This document shows, in pieces, positions 59,670 to 64,000 of a stretch of 64,000 nt of DNA. The stretch is taken from NCBI RefSeq assembly GCF_002854065.1, contig NZ_CP024147.1, one strand, 5' to 3'. Position numbers and translations under genes: made by a program. This stretch comes from Escherichia coli (GTDB lineage: Bacteria; Pseudomonadota; Gammaproteobacteria; Enterobacterales; Enterobacteriaceae). How positions within the stretch are numbered: the stretch's first letter is position 1; each line of letters opens with the position of its first letter. The notes under the pieces are model-generated. The model did not search any database. It was not told the origin of the DNA and saw nothing but the letters and a program-made list of their open reading frames with translations.

Positions 59670-60275
59670 ATGACGCTCTACCAGATAAAACCGCTCTTTC
59701 AGTCGCTGTTAAGGCCGACGATGTTTTGGCTTTATAAGCACCATGTTACAGCGAATCACATCACTCTTGCTGCACTGGCGCTTTCTCTTATTACCGGATT
59801 GCTGTTGATGTTGGTCGCACAACCCATCCTCTTTTTGCTATTGCCCATCGTGCTTTTTATCCGTATGGCACTCAATGCGCTGGATGGCATGTTGGCGCGT
59901 GAGTGCAATCTGCAAACACGTCTGGGGGCGATTTTGAATGAAACTGGCGATGTTATTTCCGATATTGCGCTCTATTTACCGTTTTTATTTTTACCAGAAA
60001 GTAACGCATCACTCGTAATACTCATGTTATTTTTCACCATATTGACTGAGTTTTGCGGTTTACTCGCGCAGACGATTAACAGTATTCGCAGTTATGCCGG
60101 TCCATTCGGCAAAAGCGATCGTGCGTTAATATTTGGGTTGTGGGGGCTGGCCGTTGCCATTTATCCACAGTGGATGCAATGGAATAATCTTTTATGGGGC
60201 ATTGCTTCAATTCTGCTTATCTGGACTGCGATTAATCGTTGTCGGAGTGTGCTCCTGATGAGTGCTGAAAGATAA
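59670..60275 (+). CDS. ynbA: CDP-alcohol phosphatidyltransferase family membrane protein YnbA
   Basis: ORF track 59664..60275; motif DGMLAR-x8-G-x3-N-x3-D resembling the CDP-alcohol phosphotransferase signature; multi-TM. Confidence 0.88.
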   Translation: MTLYQIKPLFQSLLRPTMFWLYKHHVTANHITLAALALSLITGLLLMLVAQPILFLLLPIVLFIRMALNALDGMLARECNLQTRLGAILNETGDVISDIALYLPFLFLPESNASLVILMLFFTILTEFCGLLAQTINSIRSYAGPFGKSDRALIFGLWGLAVAIYPQWMQWNNLLWGIASILLIWTAINRCRSVLLMSAER

Positions 60276-61171
60276 TGCTGGAAAAATCTCTGGCAACACT
60301 TTTCGCGTTGTTAATTTTAGCAACGCTGATAAACCGTTTTCGGGTATGGCGGTTACCGGAGAGAAAAGAGGATGAAGTTACATTACGTATTCGTACCTGG
60401 TGGGGTATCGTCATTTGTTTTTCACTGGTGATTTCAGGTCCACGCTGGATGACGTTGACGTTTTTTGCGCTGATAAGTTTTCTGGCATTGAAAGAATATT
60501 GTACGCTTATATCCGTACATTTTCCGCGTTGGTTATATTGGGTTATTCCTCTTAACTATTTGCTTATCGGTTTTAATTGCTTTGAGCTGTTTCTGTTATT
60601 TATACCTTTGGCTGGGGTTCTGATATTAACCACCTGGCGAGTTTTAGTAGGTGATACCTCCGGTTTTCTGCATACCGTGAGCGCCATTTTTTGGGGCTGG
60701 ATAATGACCGTTTTCGCCTTGAGTCATGCCGCCTGGTTATTAATGTTGCCAACCACAAATACCCAGGGCGGGGCGTTACTGGTGTTATTTCTTTTGGCGT
60801 TAACAGAGTCAAACGATATTGCACAGTATTTATGGGGGAAATCCTGCGGCAGAAGAAAAGTGGTCCCCAAAGTCAGCCCGGGAAAAACGCTGGAAGGTCT
60901 GGTGGGGGGCGTAATCACCACCATGATTGCGTCACTGATTATTGGGCCGTTGCTGACACCGCTAAATACATTACAGGCATTATTAGCGGGTTTGTTAATT
61001 GGTATTAGTGGTTTTTGCGGCGATGTAGTGATGTCAGCCATCAAACGAGATATTGGTGTTAAAGATAGCGGAAAACTATTACCAGGACATGGCGGACTCC
61101 TTGACAGGATTGACTCATTAATTTTCACCGCTCCGGTATTTTTTTATTTTATTCGCTACTGCTGTTACTGA
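60275..61171 (+). CDS. ynbB: CDP-diglyceride synthase (CdsA)-like membrane protein YnbB
   Basis: ORF track 298 aa; C-terminal cytidylyltransferase signature [28 protein letters not shown]; start overlaps ynbA stop. Confidence 0.88.
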   Translation: [298 protein letters not shown]

Positions 61172-61186
61172 AGGAAAATAGAGAAA

Positions 61187-62944
61187 ATGGAAAATTCACG
61201 CATCCCTGGGGAACATTTTTTTACCACCAGTGATAATACAGCGTTGTTTTATCGGCACTGGCCCGCTTTACAGCCCGGGGCGAAAAAGGTCATCGTCTTA
61301 TTTCATCGCGGTCATGAACATTCTGGTCGTCTACAACATCTCGTTGATGAACTGGCGATGCCAGATACTGCTTTTTATGCATGGGATGCCCGAGGGCATG
61401 GAAAAACTTCGGGGCCGCGTGGTTATAGCCCATCTCTTGCGCGTTCAGTGCGGGATGTCGATGAATTTGTCCGTTTTGCTGCCAGCGACAGCCAGGTCGG
61501 GCTGGAAGAGGTGGTAGTGATCGCGCAGAGCGTCGGCGCAGTGCTGGTTGCCACATGGGTTCATGATTATGCGCCTGCAATTCGCGGGCTGCTGCTGGCT
61601 TCTCCGGCCTTTAAGGTTAAATTGTATGTGCCGCTGGCACGTCCTGCGCTGGCGTTATGGCATCGTCTGCGTGGTCTGTTTTTTATTAATTCCTATGTGA
61701 AAGGACGCTATTTGACCCACGATCGGCAACGGGTGGCGAGTTTCAATAATGATCCGCTGATCACACGGGCGATTGCCGTCAATATCTTGCTCGATCTCTA
61801 TAAAACGTCTGAACGTATTGTTAGCGATGCGGCGGCGATTACGCTCCCCACGCAACTTCTGATATCAGGCGATGACTATGTGGTGCATCGCCAACCGCAG
61901 ATCGATTTTTATCTGCGTTTACGTAGCCCTCTCAAAGAGCTGCATCTGCTGCCAGGCTTTTATCACGACACGTTGGGTGAAGAGAACAGGGCGCTGGCAT
62001 TTGAAAAAATGCAAAGCTTTATTAGTCGTTTATATGCTAACAAGTCACAAAAATTTGATTATCAGCATGAAGACCGCACTGGACCATCAGCGGATCGCTG
62101 GCGGCTCCTTTCAGGTGGACCCGTGCCATTATCGCCGGTTGATTTGGCGTATCGCTTTATGCGTAAAGCGATGAAATTGTTCGGGACGCACTCTGCGGGC
62201 CTGCATCTCGGAATGAGCACCGGCTTTGATTCAGGCAGTTCGCTGGATTATGTCTATCAAAATCAACCGCAAGGTAGTAACGCATTCGGGCGCTTAATCG
62301 ACAAAATCTACCTGAACAGTGTTGGCTGGCGCGGTATTCGCCAGCGCAAAACCCATTTACAAATACTGATTAAACAAGCCGTTGCCGATCTCCACGCCAA
62401 AGGTTTAGCCGTCCGCGTGGTTGACATTGCCGCAGGGCATGGGCGCTATGTACTGGATGCGCTGGCAAACGAGCCTGCCGTAAGCGATATTTTGTTACGT
62501 GATTACAGCGAGTTAAATGTTGCACAGGGGCAAGAGATGATTGCTCAACGGGGAATGTCTGGGCGGGTGCGTTTTGAACAGGGCGATGCGTTTAACCCGG
62601 AGGAACTCAGCGCGTTAACTCCGCGGCCTACGCTGGCGATTGTCTCTGGCCTGTATGAGCTTTTTCCCGAAAATGAGCAGGTAAAAAACTCACTCGCAGG
62701 TCTTGCCAATGCCATCGAACCGGGCGGCATTCTCCTCTACACCGGGCAGCCGTGGCACCCACAACTGGAGCTGATTGCCGGGGTGTTAACCAGTCATAAA
62801 GATGGTAAACCGTGGGTAATGCGCGTGCGTTCTCAAGGGGAGATGGATTCACTCGTGCGTGATGCCGGATTTGATAAATGCACACAACGGATTGATGAGT
62901 GGGGTATTTTTACGGTTTCGATGGCGGTGCGTCGTGATAACTGA
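61187..62944 (+). CDS. ynbC: Two-domain protein YnbC: N-terminal alpha/beta hydrolase (lysophospholipase-like), C-terminal SAM-methyltransferase-like
   Basis: ORF track 585 aa; HRGHEHSG and nucleophile-elbow-like AQSVG in the N-terminal half; [11 protein letters not shown] glycine-rich motif in the C-terminal half. Confidence 0.85.
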
Positions 62945-64000
62945 ACGTCGGAACGTATTGCTACAAGGCGCTGGCTGGTTATTGTTGCTGGCCCCGTTTT
63001 TCTTCTTCACCTATGGATCTCTTAATCAGTTCACCGCGGTTCAGGACCTTAACAGCCATGATATCCCCAGTCAGGTATTCGGTTGGGAAACGGCGATCCC
63101 TTTTCTTCCCTGGACTATTGTTCCTTACTGGAGTCTGGATCTTATATATGGATTTTCGCTGTTCGTTTGTAGCTCGACATTCGAACTGCGCCGACTTGTC
63201 CACCGGCTTATTCTGGCAACGGTAATGGCCTGCTGCGGTTTTTTTCTCTACCCGCTGAAGTTTAGTTTTATCCGTCCTGAAGTGAGTGGGGTGACAGGAT
63301 GGCTATTTTCGCAACTTGAACTGTTTGATCTGCCCTATAACCAGTCTCCTTCGCTGCATATTATTCTCTGCTGGCTACTTTGGCGTCACTTTCGTCAGCA
63401 TCTGGCTGTGAGGTGGCGTAAAGTCTGCGGCGGATGGTTTTTACTCATCGCCATTTCGACGCTGACAACCTGGCAGCATCATTTTATTGATGTCATCACA
63501 GGGCTGGCGGTAGGTATGTTGATTGACTGGATGGTACCCGTCGACCGTCGTTGGAATTATCAGAAACCTGATCAACGTCGAATCAAAATAGCACTGCCAT
63601 ATGTCGTAGGCGCGTGCGCGTGCATTGTGTTGATGGAGCTAATGATGATGGTTCAGTTATGGTGGTCAGTCTGGTTATGTTGGCCAGTATTATCGCTACT
63701 CATTATTGGCCGTGGGTACGGTGGGCTTGGCGCGATAACAACAGGGAAAGATAGTCAGGGGAAACTCCCGCCCGCCGTTTACTGGCTGACATTGCCCTGG
63801 CGTATCGGGATGTGGCTATCTATGCGTTGGTTTTGTCGTCGCCTGGAGCCGGTGAGCAAAATGACTGCTGGTGTTTATTTAGGGGCGTTTCCACGACATA
63901 TTCCGGCACAGAATGCGGTTCTGGACGTCACCTTTGAATTCCCTCGCGGACGAGCGACAAAAGATCGACTCTATTTCTGTGTACCGATGTTGGATCTGGT
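62934..64000 (+). CDS. ynbD: YnbD (membrane domain followed by phosphatase-like domain), N-terminal ~355 codons; runs past the window end
   Basis: Open frame from GTG at 62934 (overlapping ynbC stop) to the window end with no stop: [25 protein letters not shown]...; several hydrophobic helices; start codon choice uncertain. Confidence 0.7.

What the first reader, a model, noticed from the sequence alone, without database searches (positions are those of the whole stretch)
59670..64000. ynbABCD: tightly coupled four-gene operon predicted to build or remodel an unidentified lipid head group
The genes overlap (ynbA/ynbB share TAATG; a ynbD GTG start overlaps the ynbC stop), implying co-translation. 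The encoded set is a CDP-alcohol phosphatidyltransferase (YnbA), a CdsA-like CTP:phosphatidate cytidylyltransferase with the canonical C-terminal signature (YnbB), a fusion of a lysophospholipase-like alpha/beta hydrolase with a SAM-methyltransferase-like domain (YnbC), and a membrane protein with a phosphatase-like region (YnbD, cut by the window end). Activation, head-group transfer, methylation or deacylation, and dephosphorylation together look like a self-contained pathway for a modified phospholipid or lipid-linked small molecule, distinct from the essential CdsA/PgsA/PssA route. To my knowledge its product is unknown. This is the best candidate in the window for an under-described system, though the operon itself is conserved and not novel.
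Basis: partly seen in the sequence, partly recalled or inferred. Interest (0 to 1): 0.6.

Follow-up and report, generated by a model that had tools for sequence, protein, structure and literature searches.

The report
E. coli ynbABCD orphan lipid operon
This is the known but mostly uncharacterised E. coli ynbABCD operon, a cut-down copy of a six-gene cluster common in proteobacteria that most likely builds a special membrane phospholipid nobody has yet identified.

Summary
Window 59670-64000 carries ynbA, ynbB, ynbC and the first 81% of ynbD. They are packed as described, and every family assignment is confirmed by Pfam.

- "Product unknown" is out of date for YnbB. Published work shows it is a CdsA paralogue that makes CDP-diacylglycerol and can feed the glycolipid MPIase.
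- I found no functional study of YnbA or YnbD; for ynbC only an indirect transposon phenotype.

New findings here:
- The four genes are a reduced form of a six-gene cluster found in at least 577 species. E. coli lacks its PlsC-type acyltransferase and a small membrane protein.
- YnbA-YnbC fusion proteins exist in other organisms.
- The YnbA family has Asn at two of the four signature Asp positions, in all 83 sequences examined.
- The membrane domain of YnbD resembles sphingomyelin and inositol-phosphorylceramide synthases more than hydrolytic PAP2 phosphatases. Its cytoplasmic domain is a PTPMT1-like phosphatase.

Best reading (confidence about 0.45): YnbB makes a private CDP-diacylglycerol pool. 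YnbA uses it to make a phosphatidyl-alcohol-phosphate. YnbD removes the phosphate and may pass the head group on. YnbC modifies the lipid. The operon is dispensable but under purifying selection. Interest is moderate.

The parts
59501..59669 (+). ydbD-ynbA intergenic region, which holds the ynbA promoter
   Evidence: [quoted passage not shown] I did not map the site here. A Shine-Dalgarno-like AAGGA lies 6-7 nt before the ATG.
59670..60275 (+). ynbA: 201-aa divergent CDP-alcohol phosphatidyltransferase
   Evidence: Pfam CDP-OH_P_transf 3e-8. The best NCBIfam matches are archaetidylinositol-phosphate synthase (7e-20) and PIP synthase (1e-10), both below their cut-offs. The best solved structure is mycobacterial PIP synthase 6h53 (1e-5). 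The motif is N69-x2-D72-G-x2-A-R-x8-G86-x3-N90-E91-x2-D94-x3-D98, invariant in 83 of 83 sequences.
60273..60277 (+). TAATG: ynbA stop overlapping the ynbB start
   Evidence: Read directly from the sequence. It suggests translational coupling.
60275..61171 (+). ynbB: 298-aa CdsA paralogue (CDP-diacylglycerol synthase)
   Evidence: Pfam CTP_transf_1 2e-70. The signature S254-x-I-K-R...K-D...G-H-G-G-L-x-D-R-x-D is conserved in 70 of 70 sequences. The score against the CdsA equivalog is 110 bits against a cut-off of 385. Published work reports CDP-diacylglycerol synthesis in vitro and a link to MPIase.
61187..62944 (+). ynbC: 585-aa fusion of a serine hydrolase and a SAM-dependent methyltransferase-like domain
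   Evidence: see the two domain entries below. The ATG is preceded by a purine-rich AAGGAAAATAGAGAAA.
61280..61984 (+). YnbC residues 32-266: monoacylglycerol-lipase / lysophospholipase-like alpha/beta hydrolase domain
   Evidence: Pfam Hydrolase_4 2e-66. It matches M. tuberculosis and human monoacylglycerol lipases at 1e-13 to 6e-11. The H-R-G-H-E-H-S-G-R motif, the nucleophile S115 (in A-Q-S-V-G), D230 and H260 are conserved in at least 87 of 90 sequences.
62009..62932 (+). YnbC residues 275-582: Methyltransf_20 domain (class I SAM-methyltransferase fold with a helical cap)
   Evidence: Pfam PF12147 3e-152. The SAM motif D413-I-A-A-G417-x-G419 and D439 are conserved. The AlphaFold2 model has pLDDT 93.5. 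Foldseek finds small-molecule methyltransferases, and the best hit is an uncharacterised Bordetella protein, 3ocj. The best sequence-profile hits are Pseudomonas prenyl-diphosphate C-methyltransferases.
62934..62944 (+). Possible ynbC/ynbD overlap, if ynbD starts at GTG 62934
   Evidence: The GTG is in frame with ynbD. Homologues mostly have ATGA or GTGA stop/start overlaps. RefSeq instead uses TTG 62958.
62958..64000 (+). ynbD, codons 1-347 of 430: membrane PAP2 domain plus the start of the DSP phosphatase domain (cut by the window end)
   Evidence: The full protein was read from L001:9459-10748, which is identical to the window over the shared part.
63162..63524 (+). YnbD residues 69-189: PAP2_3 catalytic core
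63873..64000 (+). YnbD residues 306-347: first part of the DSP (cysteine phosphatase) domain

Best explanation
ynbABCD is the E. coli form of a conserved proteobacterial operon for a specialised glycerophospholipid. The operon has its own supply of activated lipid.

Steps, with their status:
1. Shown in the literature: YnbB converts phosphatidate and CTP to CDP-diacylglycerol. It does so too slowly to support bulk phospholipid synthesis.
2. Inferred: YnbB hands this CDP-diacylglycerol to YnbA, whose gene is translationally coupled to ynbB.
3. Inferred: YnbA is a divergent relative of phosphatidylinositol-phosphate and phosphatidylglycerol-phosphate synthases. It joins the phosphatidyl group to a phosphorylated alcohol, giving a phosphatidyl-X-phosphate.
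4. Inferred: the cytoplasmic PTPMT1-like cysteine phosphatase domain of YnbD removes the terminal phosphate.
5. Inferred: the membrane domain of YnbD is a PAP2 enzyme shaped like sphingomyelin and inositol-phosphorylceramide synthases, with its His-His-Asp site facing the periplasm. It then moves the phospho-X head group to an acceptor, releasing diacylglycerol, or hydrolyses a lipid (pyro)phosphate.
6. Inferred: YnbC is a cytoplasmic monoacylglycerol-lipase-like serine hydrolase fused to a SAM-dependent methyltransferase. It tailors the lipid by removing an acyl chain and adding a methyl group.

In most other bacteria the cluster also encodes a PlsC-type acyltransferase, which would make the phosphatidate, and a small membrane protein. 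E. coli has lost both.

[quoted passage not shown] If the operon is little expressed in standard cultures (not tested here), that could explain why no product has been seen.
For: Family assignments and intact catalytic residues:
- Pfam and NCBIfam assignments.
- Catalytic residues are conserved across 70-90 homologues: the YnbB signature; YnbC S115/D230/H260 and its SAM motif; YnbD H134/H174/H175/D178 and D346/C376/R382.

YnbA relatives:
- Its nearest relatives use phosphorylated alcohols: AIP synthase 7e-20, PIP synthase 1e-10, and the PIP synthase structure 6h53.
- It keeps invariant basic residues R140, K148, R151 and R190.

YnbD:
- Topology follows from the positive-inside rule.

Synteny and fusions:
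- At least 577 species carry the YnbC fusion.
- Of the best 80 loci, 67 contain A, C and D, most often in the order A-C-D-s-t-B or A-B-t-C-D-s.
- A more distant locus (41% YnbC identity) has the arrangement B-C then A and D on the opposite strand.
- YnbA-YnbC fusions occur in L002 and L003.
- The acyltransferase carries HX4D and FPEGTR motifs and matches Aas/AGPAT models.

Selection and literature:
- Purifying selection within E. coli: dN/dS 0.16-0.19 for ynbA, ynbC and ynbD.
- YnbB makes CDP-diacylglycerol in vitro (PMC7018664).
- BglJ-RcsB activates the ynbA promoter (PMC3950696).
- ynbB is cold-induced (PMC11413397).
Against: - No lipid product has ever been reported. A ynbB knockout shows no phospholipid or MPIase defect.
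- The YnbA family has Asn at signature positions D1 and D3, which bind metal in solved relatives. Its chemistry may therefore differ, or it may be weak.
- No gene in or beside the cluster makes a candidate alcohol phosphate, such as an inositol-phosphate synthase.
- The methyltransferase has no characterised close relative, so its substrate is a guess.
- E. coli lacks two of the six conserved genes.
- 805 of 5426 E. coli genomes lack the operon, and some carry a ynbB pseudogene or IS1 deletions.
- The order of steps and the handover between the two YnbD domains are inferred only.
Confidence: 0.45

Rival explanations
1. The operon makes a diacylglycerol-pyrophosphate-linked sugar (MPIase-type pathway). 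YnbA would be the missing enzyme that replaces the CMP of CDP-diacylglycerol with a sugar-1-phosphate such as GlcNAc-1-P, giving GlcNAc-PP-diacylglycerol. After the glycan has been used, the periplasmic PAP2 domain of YnbD would recycle diacylglycerol pyrophosphate to phosphatidate. This would resemble the undecaprenyl-phosphate carrier cycle.
For: - YnbB over-expression raises MPIase about three-fold and restores it when CdsA is depleted (PMC6362211; PMC7018664).
- The published reaction, CDP-diacylglycerol plus GlcNAc-1-P, is the kind of chemistry a CDP-alcohol phosphatidyltransferase performs. The authors used membrane vesicles or only partially purified CdsA8, and state that unknown factors cannot be excluded.
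- ynbA and ynbB are translationally coupled.
- YnbA keeps basic residues suited to a phosphorylated acceptor.
- From general knowledge: PAP2 enzymes such as PgpB hydrolyse lipid pyrophosphates.
Against: - MPIase is reported to be essential, yet the operon is non-essential, absent from 15% of E. coli genomes, and MPIase is unchanged in a ynbB knockout.
- The cluster is common in Pseudomonas and Betaproteobacteria. From my own knowledge, the enterobacterial-common-antigen-type glycan of MPIase is not known in those groups.
- There is no glycosyltransferase in the cluster.
- This model explains neither the DSP domain nor YnbC.
- No paper on MPIase that I read mentions ynbA.
Confidence: 0.15
2. 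The cluster remodels or recycles lipids rather than making a new head group. YnbC would strip an acyl chain from a lysophospholipid, monoacylglycerol or diacylglycerol. The PlsC-type acyltransferase would re-acylate it. YnbB and YnbA would return the backbone to ordinary phospholipid such as phosphatidylglycerol. YnbD would act as a phosphatidylglycerol-phosphate or lipid-phosphate phosphatase. The methyltransferase domain would modify the released fatty acid or act as a SAM sensor.
For: - The hydrolase domain matches monoacylglycerol lipases.
- The acyltransferase matches Aas-type lysophospholipid acyltransferases.
- The YnbB-(acyltransferase)-YnbC adjacency persists in distant lineages (L004, L009, L094).
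- Patatin phospholipases, short-chain dehydrogenases and fatty-acid-synthase-type genes lie beside distant YnbC relatives.
- YnbA also matches PgsA weakly, at 2e-6.
- PTPMT1 and PgpB are phosphatidylglycerol-phosphate phosphatases.
Against: - A second full copy of the phosphatidylglycerol route would be redundant with PgsA and PgpA/B/C.
- The invariant Asn-Asn variant of YnbA and the transferase-like shape of the YnbD membrane domain point to distinct chemistry.
- The methyltransferase domain is the best conserved part of YnbC, with an intact SAM site, even where the hydrolase serine is lost. Methyl transfer is therefore central, not an accessory.
Confidence: 0.15
3. In E. coli the operon is an eroding remnant with no product of its own. 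After losing the acyltransferase and the small membrane protein, only YnbB keeps a role, as a back-up, cold-induced CDP-diacylglycerol synthase.
For: - E. coli has four of the six conserved genes.
- The operon is absent from 805 of 5426 genomes.
- There is a ynbB pseudogene in strain AR_0372 and an IS1 deletion in strain E1624.
- Knockouts have no clear phenotype. The polyphosphate phenotype of a ynbC transposon mutant was not reproduced in the Keio background.
- A fuller copy that includes the acyltransferase occurs on three E. coli plasmids.
Against: - ynbA, ynbC and ynbD are intact, and all catalytic residues are conserved.
- dN/dS of 0.16-0.19 within E. coli shows continued purifying selection.
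- In the one strain examined with a decayed copy, the pseudogene is ynbB, the gene this model says is kept.
- PlsC and other housekeeping enzymes could replace the lost acyltransferase.
Confidence: 0.15

Closest known systems
Phosphatidylinositol-phosphate route to inositol lipids (mycobacterial PgsA1/PIP synthase, archaeal AIP synthase, then a PIP phosphatase, then inositol-phosphorylceramide synthase as in yeast Aur1)
   Same: The order of enzyme types is the same: CDP-diacylglycerol synthase, then a CDP-alcohol phosphatidyltransferase whose nearest relatives take a phosphorylated alcohol, then a phosphatase, then a PAP2-fold enzyme resembling head-group transferases.
   Different: - YnbA scores far below the equivalog cut-offs (72 against 180 bits) and has Asn at signature positions D1 and D3.
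- No inositol-phosphate synthase is in the cluster or, to my knowledge, in E. coli.
- E. coli has no ceramide acceptor.
- The phosphatase is a DSP fused to the PAP2 domain.
- A hydrolase-methyltransferase fusion is added.
Phosphatidylglycerol route: CdsA, PgsA, then PgpA/B/C, or PTPMT1 in mitochondria
   Same: It runs from CDP-diacylglycerol through a phosphatidyl-alcohol-phosphate to the dephosphorylated lipid. The YnbD DSP domain resembles PTPMT1, and YnbA weakly matches PgsA.
   Different: The operon is not essential and cannot replace the housekeeping route. YnbA is only 2e-6 to the PgsA model. The extra domains have no counterpart.
CdsA and the first step of MPIase synthesis (GlcNAc-PP-diacylglycerol)
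   Same: YnbB is a CdsA paralogue with the same C-terminal catalytic signature. It makes CDP-diacylglycerol and raises MPIase when over-expressed.
   Different: The N-terminal half is unrelated to CdsA, and YnbB does not support bulk phospholipid synthesis. The published work never considered the neighbouring ynbA, ynbC and ynbD genes.
Sphingomyelin synthase / SMSr / Aur1 branch of the PAP2 superfamily
   Different: Sequence identity is only 12-14%. YnbD keeps an R-P pair reminiscent of hydrolase motif C1. The donor and acceptor are unknown. The fusion to a cytoplasmic DSP domain has no counterpart in those enzymes.
Monoacylglycerol lipases (M. tuberculosis Rv0183, human MGLL) and Hydrolase_4 lysophospholipases
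   Same: The YnbC N-terminal domain shares the fold, the H-G-x-x-E-H oxyanion region and the Ser-Asp-His triad.
   Different: The nucleophile motif is A-Q-S-V-G rather than G-x-S-x-G. The domain is always fused to Methyltransf_20. Several distant members have lost the serine.
Small-molecule class I SAM methyltransferases, including Pseudomonas chlororaphis farnesyl-diphosphate and presqualene-diphosphate C-methyltransferases
   Same: It has a Rossmann SAM-binding core with a helical cap. These are the best sequence-profile hits among solved structures, at 4e-6 to 4e-5.
   Different: Identity is 13-19%. The best fold match, 3ocj, is itself uncharacterised. I found no paper that mentions PF12147.

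Membership tests
CDP-alcohol phosphatidyltransferase (PF01066) - YnbA | Significant match to the family profile | tested here: met
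   Pfam 3.2e-8 over residues 27-175. PDB relatives are the PIP synthase structure 6h53 at 1e-5 and choline/ethanolamine phosphotransferases.
CDP-alcohol phosphatidyltransferase (PF01066) - YnbA | Signature D1-x2-D2-G-x2-A-R-x8-G-x3-D3-x3-D4 with all four Asp present | tested here: not met
   YnbA has N69 at D1 and N90 at D3. D72, G73, A76, R77, G86, D94 and an extra D98 are present. The Asn residues are invariant in 83 of 83 family members. The residue register was confirmed against PIP synthase 6h53.
Phosphatidylinositol-phosphate / archaetidylinositol-phosphate synthase (NCBIfam equivalogs) | Score above the curated cut-off | tested here: not met
   71.6 bits against a cut-off of 180 (AIP synthase), and 41.7 against 170 (PIP synthase). 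YnbA is a relative, not a member.
CDP-alcohol phosphatidyltransferase - YnbA | CMP release from a CDP-activated donor in the presence of an alcohol acceptor | not testable with these tools
   This needs an enzyme assay.
CDP-diacylglycerol synthase (PF01148) - YnbB | Family profile match and the C-terminal signature S-x-[LIVMF]-K-R-x4-K-D-x-[GSA]-x2-[LIF]-[PG]-x-H-G-G-[LIVMF]-x-D-R-[LIVMFT]-D | tested here: met
   Pfam 2.4e-70. The sequence [27 protein letters not shown] is present, and its key residues are conserved in at least 66 of 70 sequences.
CdsA orthologue (NCBIfam PRK11624 equivalog) | Score above the curated cut-off over the full length | tested here: not met
   109.6 bits against a cut-off of 385, and only residues 134-291 align. 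YnbB is a paralogue, in agreement with the literature.
CDP-diacylglycerol synthase - YnbB | Makes CDP-diacylglycerol from phosphatidate and CTP | not tested
   Reported in vitro by Sato et al. 2019, as summarised in PMC7018664. I did not test it here.
Alpha/beta-hydrolase, monoacylglycerol-lipase-like (PF12146) - YnbC N-terminal domain | Ser-Asp-His triad and oxyanion-hole motif | tested here: met
   S115 (87/90), D230 (88/90), H260 (88/90) and H40-R-G-H-E-H45. The nucleophile elbow is A-Q-S-V-G, a variant of G-x-S-x-G. The serine is lost in some distant representatives.
Class I SAM-dependent methyltransferase - YnbC C-terminal domain | Rossmann fold with a Gly-rich SAM loop and an acidic residue after strand 2 | tested here: met
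   D413-I-A-A-G417-H-G419 and D439 are conserved in at least 89 of 90 sequences. The AlphaFold2 model has pLDDT 93.5. Foldseek probability is 1.00 to many SAM-bound methyltransferases.
Class I SAM-dependent methyltransferase - YnbC C-terminal domain | Methyl transfer to a defined substrate | not testable with these tools
   There is no characterised close relative, and no paper mentions PF12147.
PAP2 superfamily - YnbD membrane domain | Motifs C2 (P-S-G-H) and C3 (S-R-x5-H-x3-D), with catalytic His/His/Asp | tested here: met
   P131-S-L-H134 and S167-x6-H174-H175-x2-D178 are invariant. PAP2_3 matches 14 of 20 members. The C3 motif aligns to human LPP1. The Arg of 'SR' is absent.
Hydrolytic PAP2 lipid phosphatases (PgpB/LpxE type) | Motif C1 K-x6-R-P and the Arg of C3, which stabilise the phosphate for hydrolysis | tested here: inconclusive
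Sphingomyelin / inositol-phosphorylceramide synthase-type head-group transferases | Fold similarity and the H-H-D triad without the hydrolase Arg; transfer of a phospho-alcohol from a glycerophospholipid to a lipid hydroxyl | tested here: inconclusive
Dual-specificity (cysteine) phosphatase - YnbD C-terminal domain | H/x-C-x5-R-[ST] P-loop and an upstream general-acid Asp | tested here: met
MPIase biosynthesis pathway | The gene product is needed for, or raises, GlcNAc-PP-diacylglycerol or MPIase | not tested
   Reported for YnbB only. I found no data for YnbA, YnbC or YnbD.

The most novel reading that the evidence does not exclude
The six-gene ynb-type cluster encodes an undescribed bacterial head-group donor cycle. 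A private CDP-diacylglycerol pool would be turned into a methylated phosphatidyl-alcohol. The sphingomyelin-synthase-like domain of YnbD would then transfer its head group, on the periplasmic face, to an envelope acceptor. This would be a bacterial counterpart of the eukaryotic route from phosphatidylinositol to inositol-phosphorylceramide.

A related variant is that YnbA is the missing transferase that makes diacylglycerol-pyrophosphate-linked sugars such as the MPIase precursor.
Probability: 0.2. Interest if true: 0.8.

Novelty: new variant of a known kind. Interest (0 to 1): 0.5.

Why it matters
E. coli K-12 is the best-studied bacterium, and its phospholipid pathways are considered complete. 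Yet here is a conserved operon with four to six lipid enzymes, under purifying selection, whose product is unknown.

This work gives concrete things to test:
- the full six-gene partner set;
- an atypical catalytic motif in YnbA;
- a domain in a bacterial inner-membrane protein that resembles sphingomyelin synthases;
- a paired PTPMT1-like phosphatase.

It also offers a candidate for the "unknown factor" that the MPIase authors left open for GlcNAc-PP-diacylglycerol synthesis.

The cluster is widespread in Enterobacterales, in plant-associated and environmental Pseudomonas, and in Betaproteobacteria. A new lipid or envelope modification from it could matter for cold adaptation, stress tolerance or resistance to membrane-active compounds.

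Tried and rejected
- **Diverse alignment for the genome scan.** A 29-sequence YnbC alignment was too diverse for the search for related loci. A trimmed 11-sequence alignment worked.
- **Word-indexed homologue search.** The search with YnbC returned only relatives of at least 69% identity. The 50%-cluster library was needed to reach distant relatives.
- **Literature searches that found nothing useful.**
  - PF12147 / Methyltransf_20 returned no papers.
  - The PDB codes of the nearest methyltransferase structures returned only unrelated papers.
  - The combination of enzyme names returned nothing relevant.
- **Old EcoCyc annotation of YnbA as a diacylglycerol cholinephosphotransferase.** Rejected. 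EcoCyc itself withdrew it (PMC3781023). YnbA's best matches are PIP, AIP and PGP synthases, and choline phosphotransferases match only at 0.004-0.01.
- **H-NS repression of ynbA.** The BglJ-RcsB paper, as far as I read it, does not report an H-NS test for ynbA, so I do not claim it.
- **Mapping the BglJ-RcsB site and promoter in 59501-59669.** I could not do this. The consensus scan found no sigma-70-like site there.
- **Other conserved neighbours.** Apart from the acyltransferase and the small membrane protein, the recurring neighbour ORF families were antisense ORFs in GC-rich DNA or synteny specific to Pseudomonas.
- **Short contigs.** Several look-ups for distant YnbC relatives gave contigs too short to be informative.

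Full report
**What is there**

The window from 59670 to its end carries four co-directional ORFs. They match the RefSeq genes ynbA, ynbB, ynbC and ynbD of E. coli. One wastewater isolate (CUWW06) is 100% identical over the region, and 4621 of 5426 complete E. coli genomes have a match.

| Gene | Window coordinates | Note |
|---|---|---|
| ynbA | 59670-60275 | |
| ynbB | 60275-61171 | |
| ynbC | 61187-62944 | |
| ynbD | 62958 to past 64000 | RefSeq TTG start; window ends after codon 347 of 430 |

The ynbA stop and ynbB start share a base (TAATG at 60273-60277). The ynbB-ynbC gap is 15 nt. An in-frame GTG for ynbD sits at 62934, 8 nt before the ynbC stop.

RefSeq starts ynbD at a TTG 13 nt after that stop. 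In homologues from Pseudomonas, Herbaspirillum, Rahnella and others, the ynbD start overlaps the ynbC stop as ATGA or GTGA. Their N-termini carry Arg or Lys just before the first membrane helix. Only the GTG start would give that feature in E. coli.

Promoter-like and terminator-like sites inside the operon are not more frequent than in shuffled sequence. The full YnbD sequence was taken from the identical CUWW06 locus (L001; identity checked).

**Domains**

| Protein | Pfam family | E-value |
|---|---|---|
| YnbA | CDP-OH_P_transf | 3e-8 |
| YnbB | CTP_transf_1 | 2e-70 |
| YnbC | Hydrolase_4 | 2e-66 |
| YnbC | Methyltransf_20 | 3e-152 |
| YnbD | PAP2_3 | 2e-4 |
| YnbD | DSPc | 3e-25 |

- The best curated matches to YnbA are archaetidylinositol-phosphate synthase (7e-20) and phosphatidylinositol-phosphate synthase (1e-10), then PgsA (2e-6). 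All are far below the equivalog cut-offs.
- The closest solved structure to YnbA is the mycobacterial PIP synthase.
- The YnbC hydrolase domain matches monoacylglycerol lipases (1e-13).
- The YnbD C-terminal domain matches dual-specificity phosphatases, including PTPMT1.

**What the literature already knows**

- YnbB is a published CdsA paralogue. It makes CDP-diacylglycerol in vitro.
- YnbB cannot replace CdsA for bulk phospholipid synthesis. Its over-production raises or restores the glycolipid MPIase, whose first intermediate is GlcNAc-PP-diacylglycerol.
- A ynbB knockout has no lipid or MPIase defect.
- ynbB is induced in the cold (PMC6362211; PMC7018664; PMC11413397).
- The authors assign the GlcNAc-1-P step to CdsA/YnbB itself. 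They worked with membrane vesicles or partially purified enzyme, and say unknown factors cannot be excluded.
- None of these papers mentions ynbA.
- The ynbA promoter is activated by the BglJ-RcsB heteromer (PMC3950696).
- An early EcoCyc assignment of YnbA as a cholinephosphotransferase was withdrawn (PMC3781023).
- A ynbC transposon mutant accumulated polyphosphate in one strain background but not in the Keio background (PMC2435150).
- I found no functional study of YnbA or YnbD, and none of the methyltransferase family.

As far as I could find, it still holds for the operon as a whole.

**The operon is part of a larger conserved cluster**

The hydrolase-methyltransferase fusion has 407 clusters (at 50% identity) with E<=1e-30 in a library of 1.84 billion representative proteins. 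A scan of one genome per species found at least 577 species encoding it. These include Enterobacterales, many Pseudomonas of the fluorescens and syringae groups, Betaproteobacteria (Cupriavidus, Variovorax, Herbaspirillum, Accumulibacter, Zoogloea) and a Bradyrhizobium.

In the 80 best loci, relatives of YnbA, YnbC and YnbD are almost always adjacent. Clustering the remaining neighbour ORFs revealed two more conserved genes:

- **"t"**, a PlsC-type lysophospholipid acyltransferase of about 213 aa. It has the HX4D and FPEGTR motifs and matches the Aas-type model at 1e-20 and the AGPAT model at 3e-18. It is present in 60 loci.
- **"s"**, a membrane protein of about 150 aa with no family. It is present in 58 loci.

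The common gene orders are A-C-D-s-t-B (Pseudomonas and Betaproteobacteria) and A-B-t-C-D-s (Citrobacter, Hafnia, Yersinia).

Further points on the cluster:

- E. coli has only A-B-C-D. ynbC follows ynbB after 15 nt, and azoR follows ynbD on the other strand. E. coli has therefore lost both extra genes.
- Proteus, Providencia, Morganella and Xenorhabdus have A-C-D, with s in most, and no nearby B.
- More distant metagenomic relatives keep the association in other arrangements: B-C facing D-A in L009, and B-t-C in L004.
- Two loci encode YnbA fused to YnbC in a single protein (L002 and L003).
- Three E. coli plasmids carry a second, Citrobacter-like copy with the acyltransferase.

This is strong evidence that the proteins work together on one lipid.

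**Catalytic residues**

- *YnbB.* The cytidylyltransferase signature is intact.
- *YnbC.* The Ser115-Asp230-His260 triad and the SAM-binding loop (D413, G417, G419, D439) are conserved in the 90 close homologues. Several distant representatives have lost the serine but keep the methyltransferase motifs.
- *YnbD.* The PAP2 residues (S132, H134, H174, H175, D178) and the phosphatase residues (D346, C376, R382) are invariant or nearly so.
- *YnbA.* This is the exception. Solved relatives have D-x2-D-G-x2-A-R-x8-G-x3-D-x3-D. The YnbA family has N69 and N90 at the first and third Asp positions in all 83 sequences, followed by an invariant E91. The alignment to PIP synthase 6h53 confirms the register. 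YnbA is therefore a divergent branch of its family, and its chemistry cannot be assumed to be standard. It also keeps invariant basic residues (R140, K148, R151, R190), which could bind an anionic acceptor such as a phosphorylated alcohol.

**Structure**

The AlphaFold2 model of the methyltransferase domain is confident (pLDDT 93.5). It shows a class I fold with a helical cap.

- The best match is an uncharacterised Bordetella protein (3ocj). After that come small-molecule methyltransferases.
- By sequence profile, the nearest solved structures are Pseudomonas farnesyl-diphosphate and presqualene-diphosphate C-methyltransferases.
- This hints only weakly at a lipid-phosphate type of substrate.

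The YnbD model is also confident (pLDDT 92.5).

- Like the transferases, YnbD lacks the Arg of the hydrolase C3 motif.
- The distribution of Lys and Arg in the loops puts the PAP2 motifs on the periplasmic face and the DSP domain in the cytoplasm. YnbD would then have one active site on each side of the inner membrane.

**Most likely mechanism**

Combining these results gives the following scheme.

1. Shown in the literature: YnbB makes a small, private pool of CDP-diacylglycerol.
2. Inferred: YnbA, whose gene is translationally coupled to ynbB, attaches a phosphorylated alcohol.
3. Inferred: the YnbD DSP domain removes the terminal phosphate. Step for step, this parallels the routes to phosphatidylglycerol and phosphatidylinositol.
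4. Inferred: the periplasm-facing domain of YnbD, which resembles head-group transferases, passes the head group on or hydrolyses a lipid phosphate.
5. Inferred: YnbC deacylates and methylates. In some organisms YnbC is fused to YnbA.
6. Inferred: in other bacteria the cluster's own acyltransferase supplies the phosphatidate.

Everything after YnbB's activity is inference, and I put this at about 0.45.

**Rival explanations**

- *A route to diacylglycerol-pyrophosphate-linked sugar (MPIase type), with YnbA as the missing transferase.* It is attractive chemically and fits the YnbB data. It fits poorly with the taxonomic spread, the lack of glycosyltransferases, and the fact that the operon is dispensable.
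- *A lipid remodelling or recycling module.*
- *An eroding remnant in E. coli.*

**Is the E. coli operon still functional?**

Evidence of decay:
- 805 genomes lack the operon.
- One strain has a ynbB pseudogene.
- Another strain lost most of the operon to an IS1-mediated deletion.

Evidence of function:
- Against a 96%-identical strain, dN/dS is 0.16 for ynbA, 0.19 for ynbC and 0.18 for ynbD. These genes are still under purifying selection.

**Novelty and interest**

The genes and their families are known and annotated, and YnbB has been studied. As far as I could find in the searchable literature, the following have not been described:

- the six-gene system;
- the Asn-Asn variant of YnbA;
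- the similarity of YnbD's membrane domain to sphingomyelin and IPC synthases, paired with a PTPMT1-like domain;
- the YnbA-YnbC fusions.

I rate it a new variant of a known kind (a CDP-diacylglycerol-dependent phospholipid pathway) of moderate interest. The reason is that it would turn an unassigned set of lipid genes in E. coli into a directly testable problem.

Noticed in passing
window 56411-59500 (IS1 at about 57771-58468): The gene upstream of ynbA, ydbD (a DUF2773 bactofilin), is split into two ORFs (56411-57742 and 58514-59500) by an IS1 element whose insA/insB-like ORFs lie at 57771-58468. Some other E. coli strains (RM9088, EC2001) show the same arrangement.
   Followed up: partly
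L001 (E. coli CUWW06) 3577-6001, equivalent to window 57076-59500: In the strain that is 100% identical over ynbABCD, the same IS1 directly follows ydbL and only the 3' part of ydbD remains. An IS1-mediated deletion has therefore removed the genes that normally lie between ydbL and ydbD. The window itself still has the 5' half of ydbD, so it comes from a related but different genome.
   Followed up: no
L091 (E. coli AR_0372) 2106-3002; L092 (E. coli E1624) 4288-5615: ynbB is a pseudogene with two internal stops in AR_0372, while ynbA, ynbC and ynbD stay intact. In E1624, an IS1-associated deletion leaves only the DSP end of ynbD. In addition, 805 of 5426 complete E. coli genomes have no match to the operon.
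   Followed up: partly
L093 (E. coli plasmid NZ_CP027341.1) 5463-9565: Three E. coli plasmids carry a second, Citrobacter-like copy of the cluster (ynbA, ynbB, a lysophospholipid acyltransferase, ynbC), with ynbD cut off by an IS66 element. The cluster can therefore move horizontally.
   Followed up: partly
L011 9367-10008 and 13031-13432; L057 8006-8467 and 8477-9097: Two genes that E. coli lacks accompany the cluster in most other species. One is a PlsC-type acyltransferase of about 213 aa. The other is a membrane protein of about 150 aa that matches no NCBIfam family.
   Followed up: partly
L094 777-3660; L097; L007; L003; L009: Distant YnbC relatives sit beside other lipid or envelope genes. 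These include a PEMT/ICMT-type membrane methyltransferase (L094), glycosyltransferases with an MsbA-like transporter and TamB (L097), ketoacyl synthase, dehydratase and reductase genes (L007), and patatin phospholipases with short-chain dehydrogenases (L003, L009).
   Followed up: no
alignment A1 (distant YnbC representatives P0153, P0160, P0164, P0169, P0175, P0196): Several distant members of the fusion family have lost the hydrolase nucleophile serine but keep the SAM-binding motifs. This suggests the methyltransferase half is the core function and that the hydrolase half can become non-catalytic.
   Followed up: no
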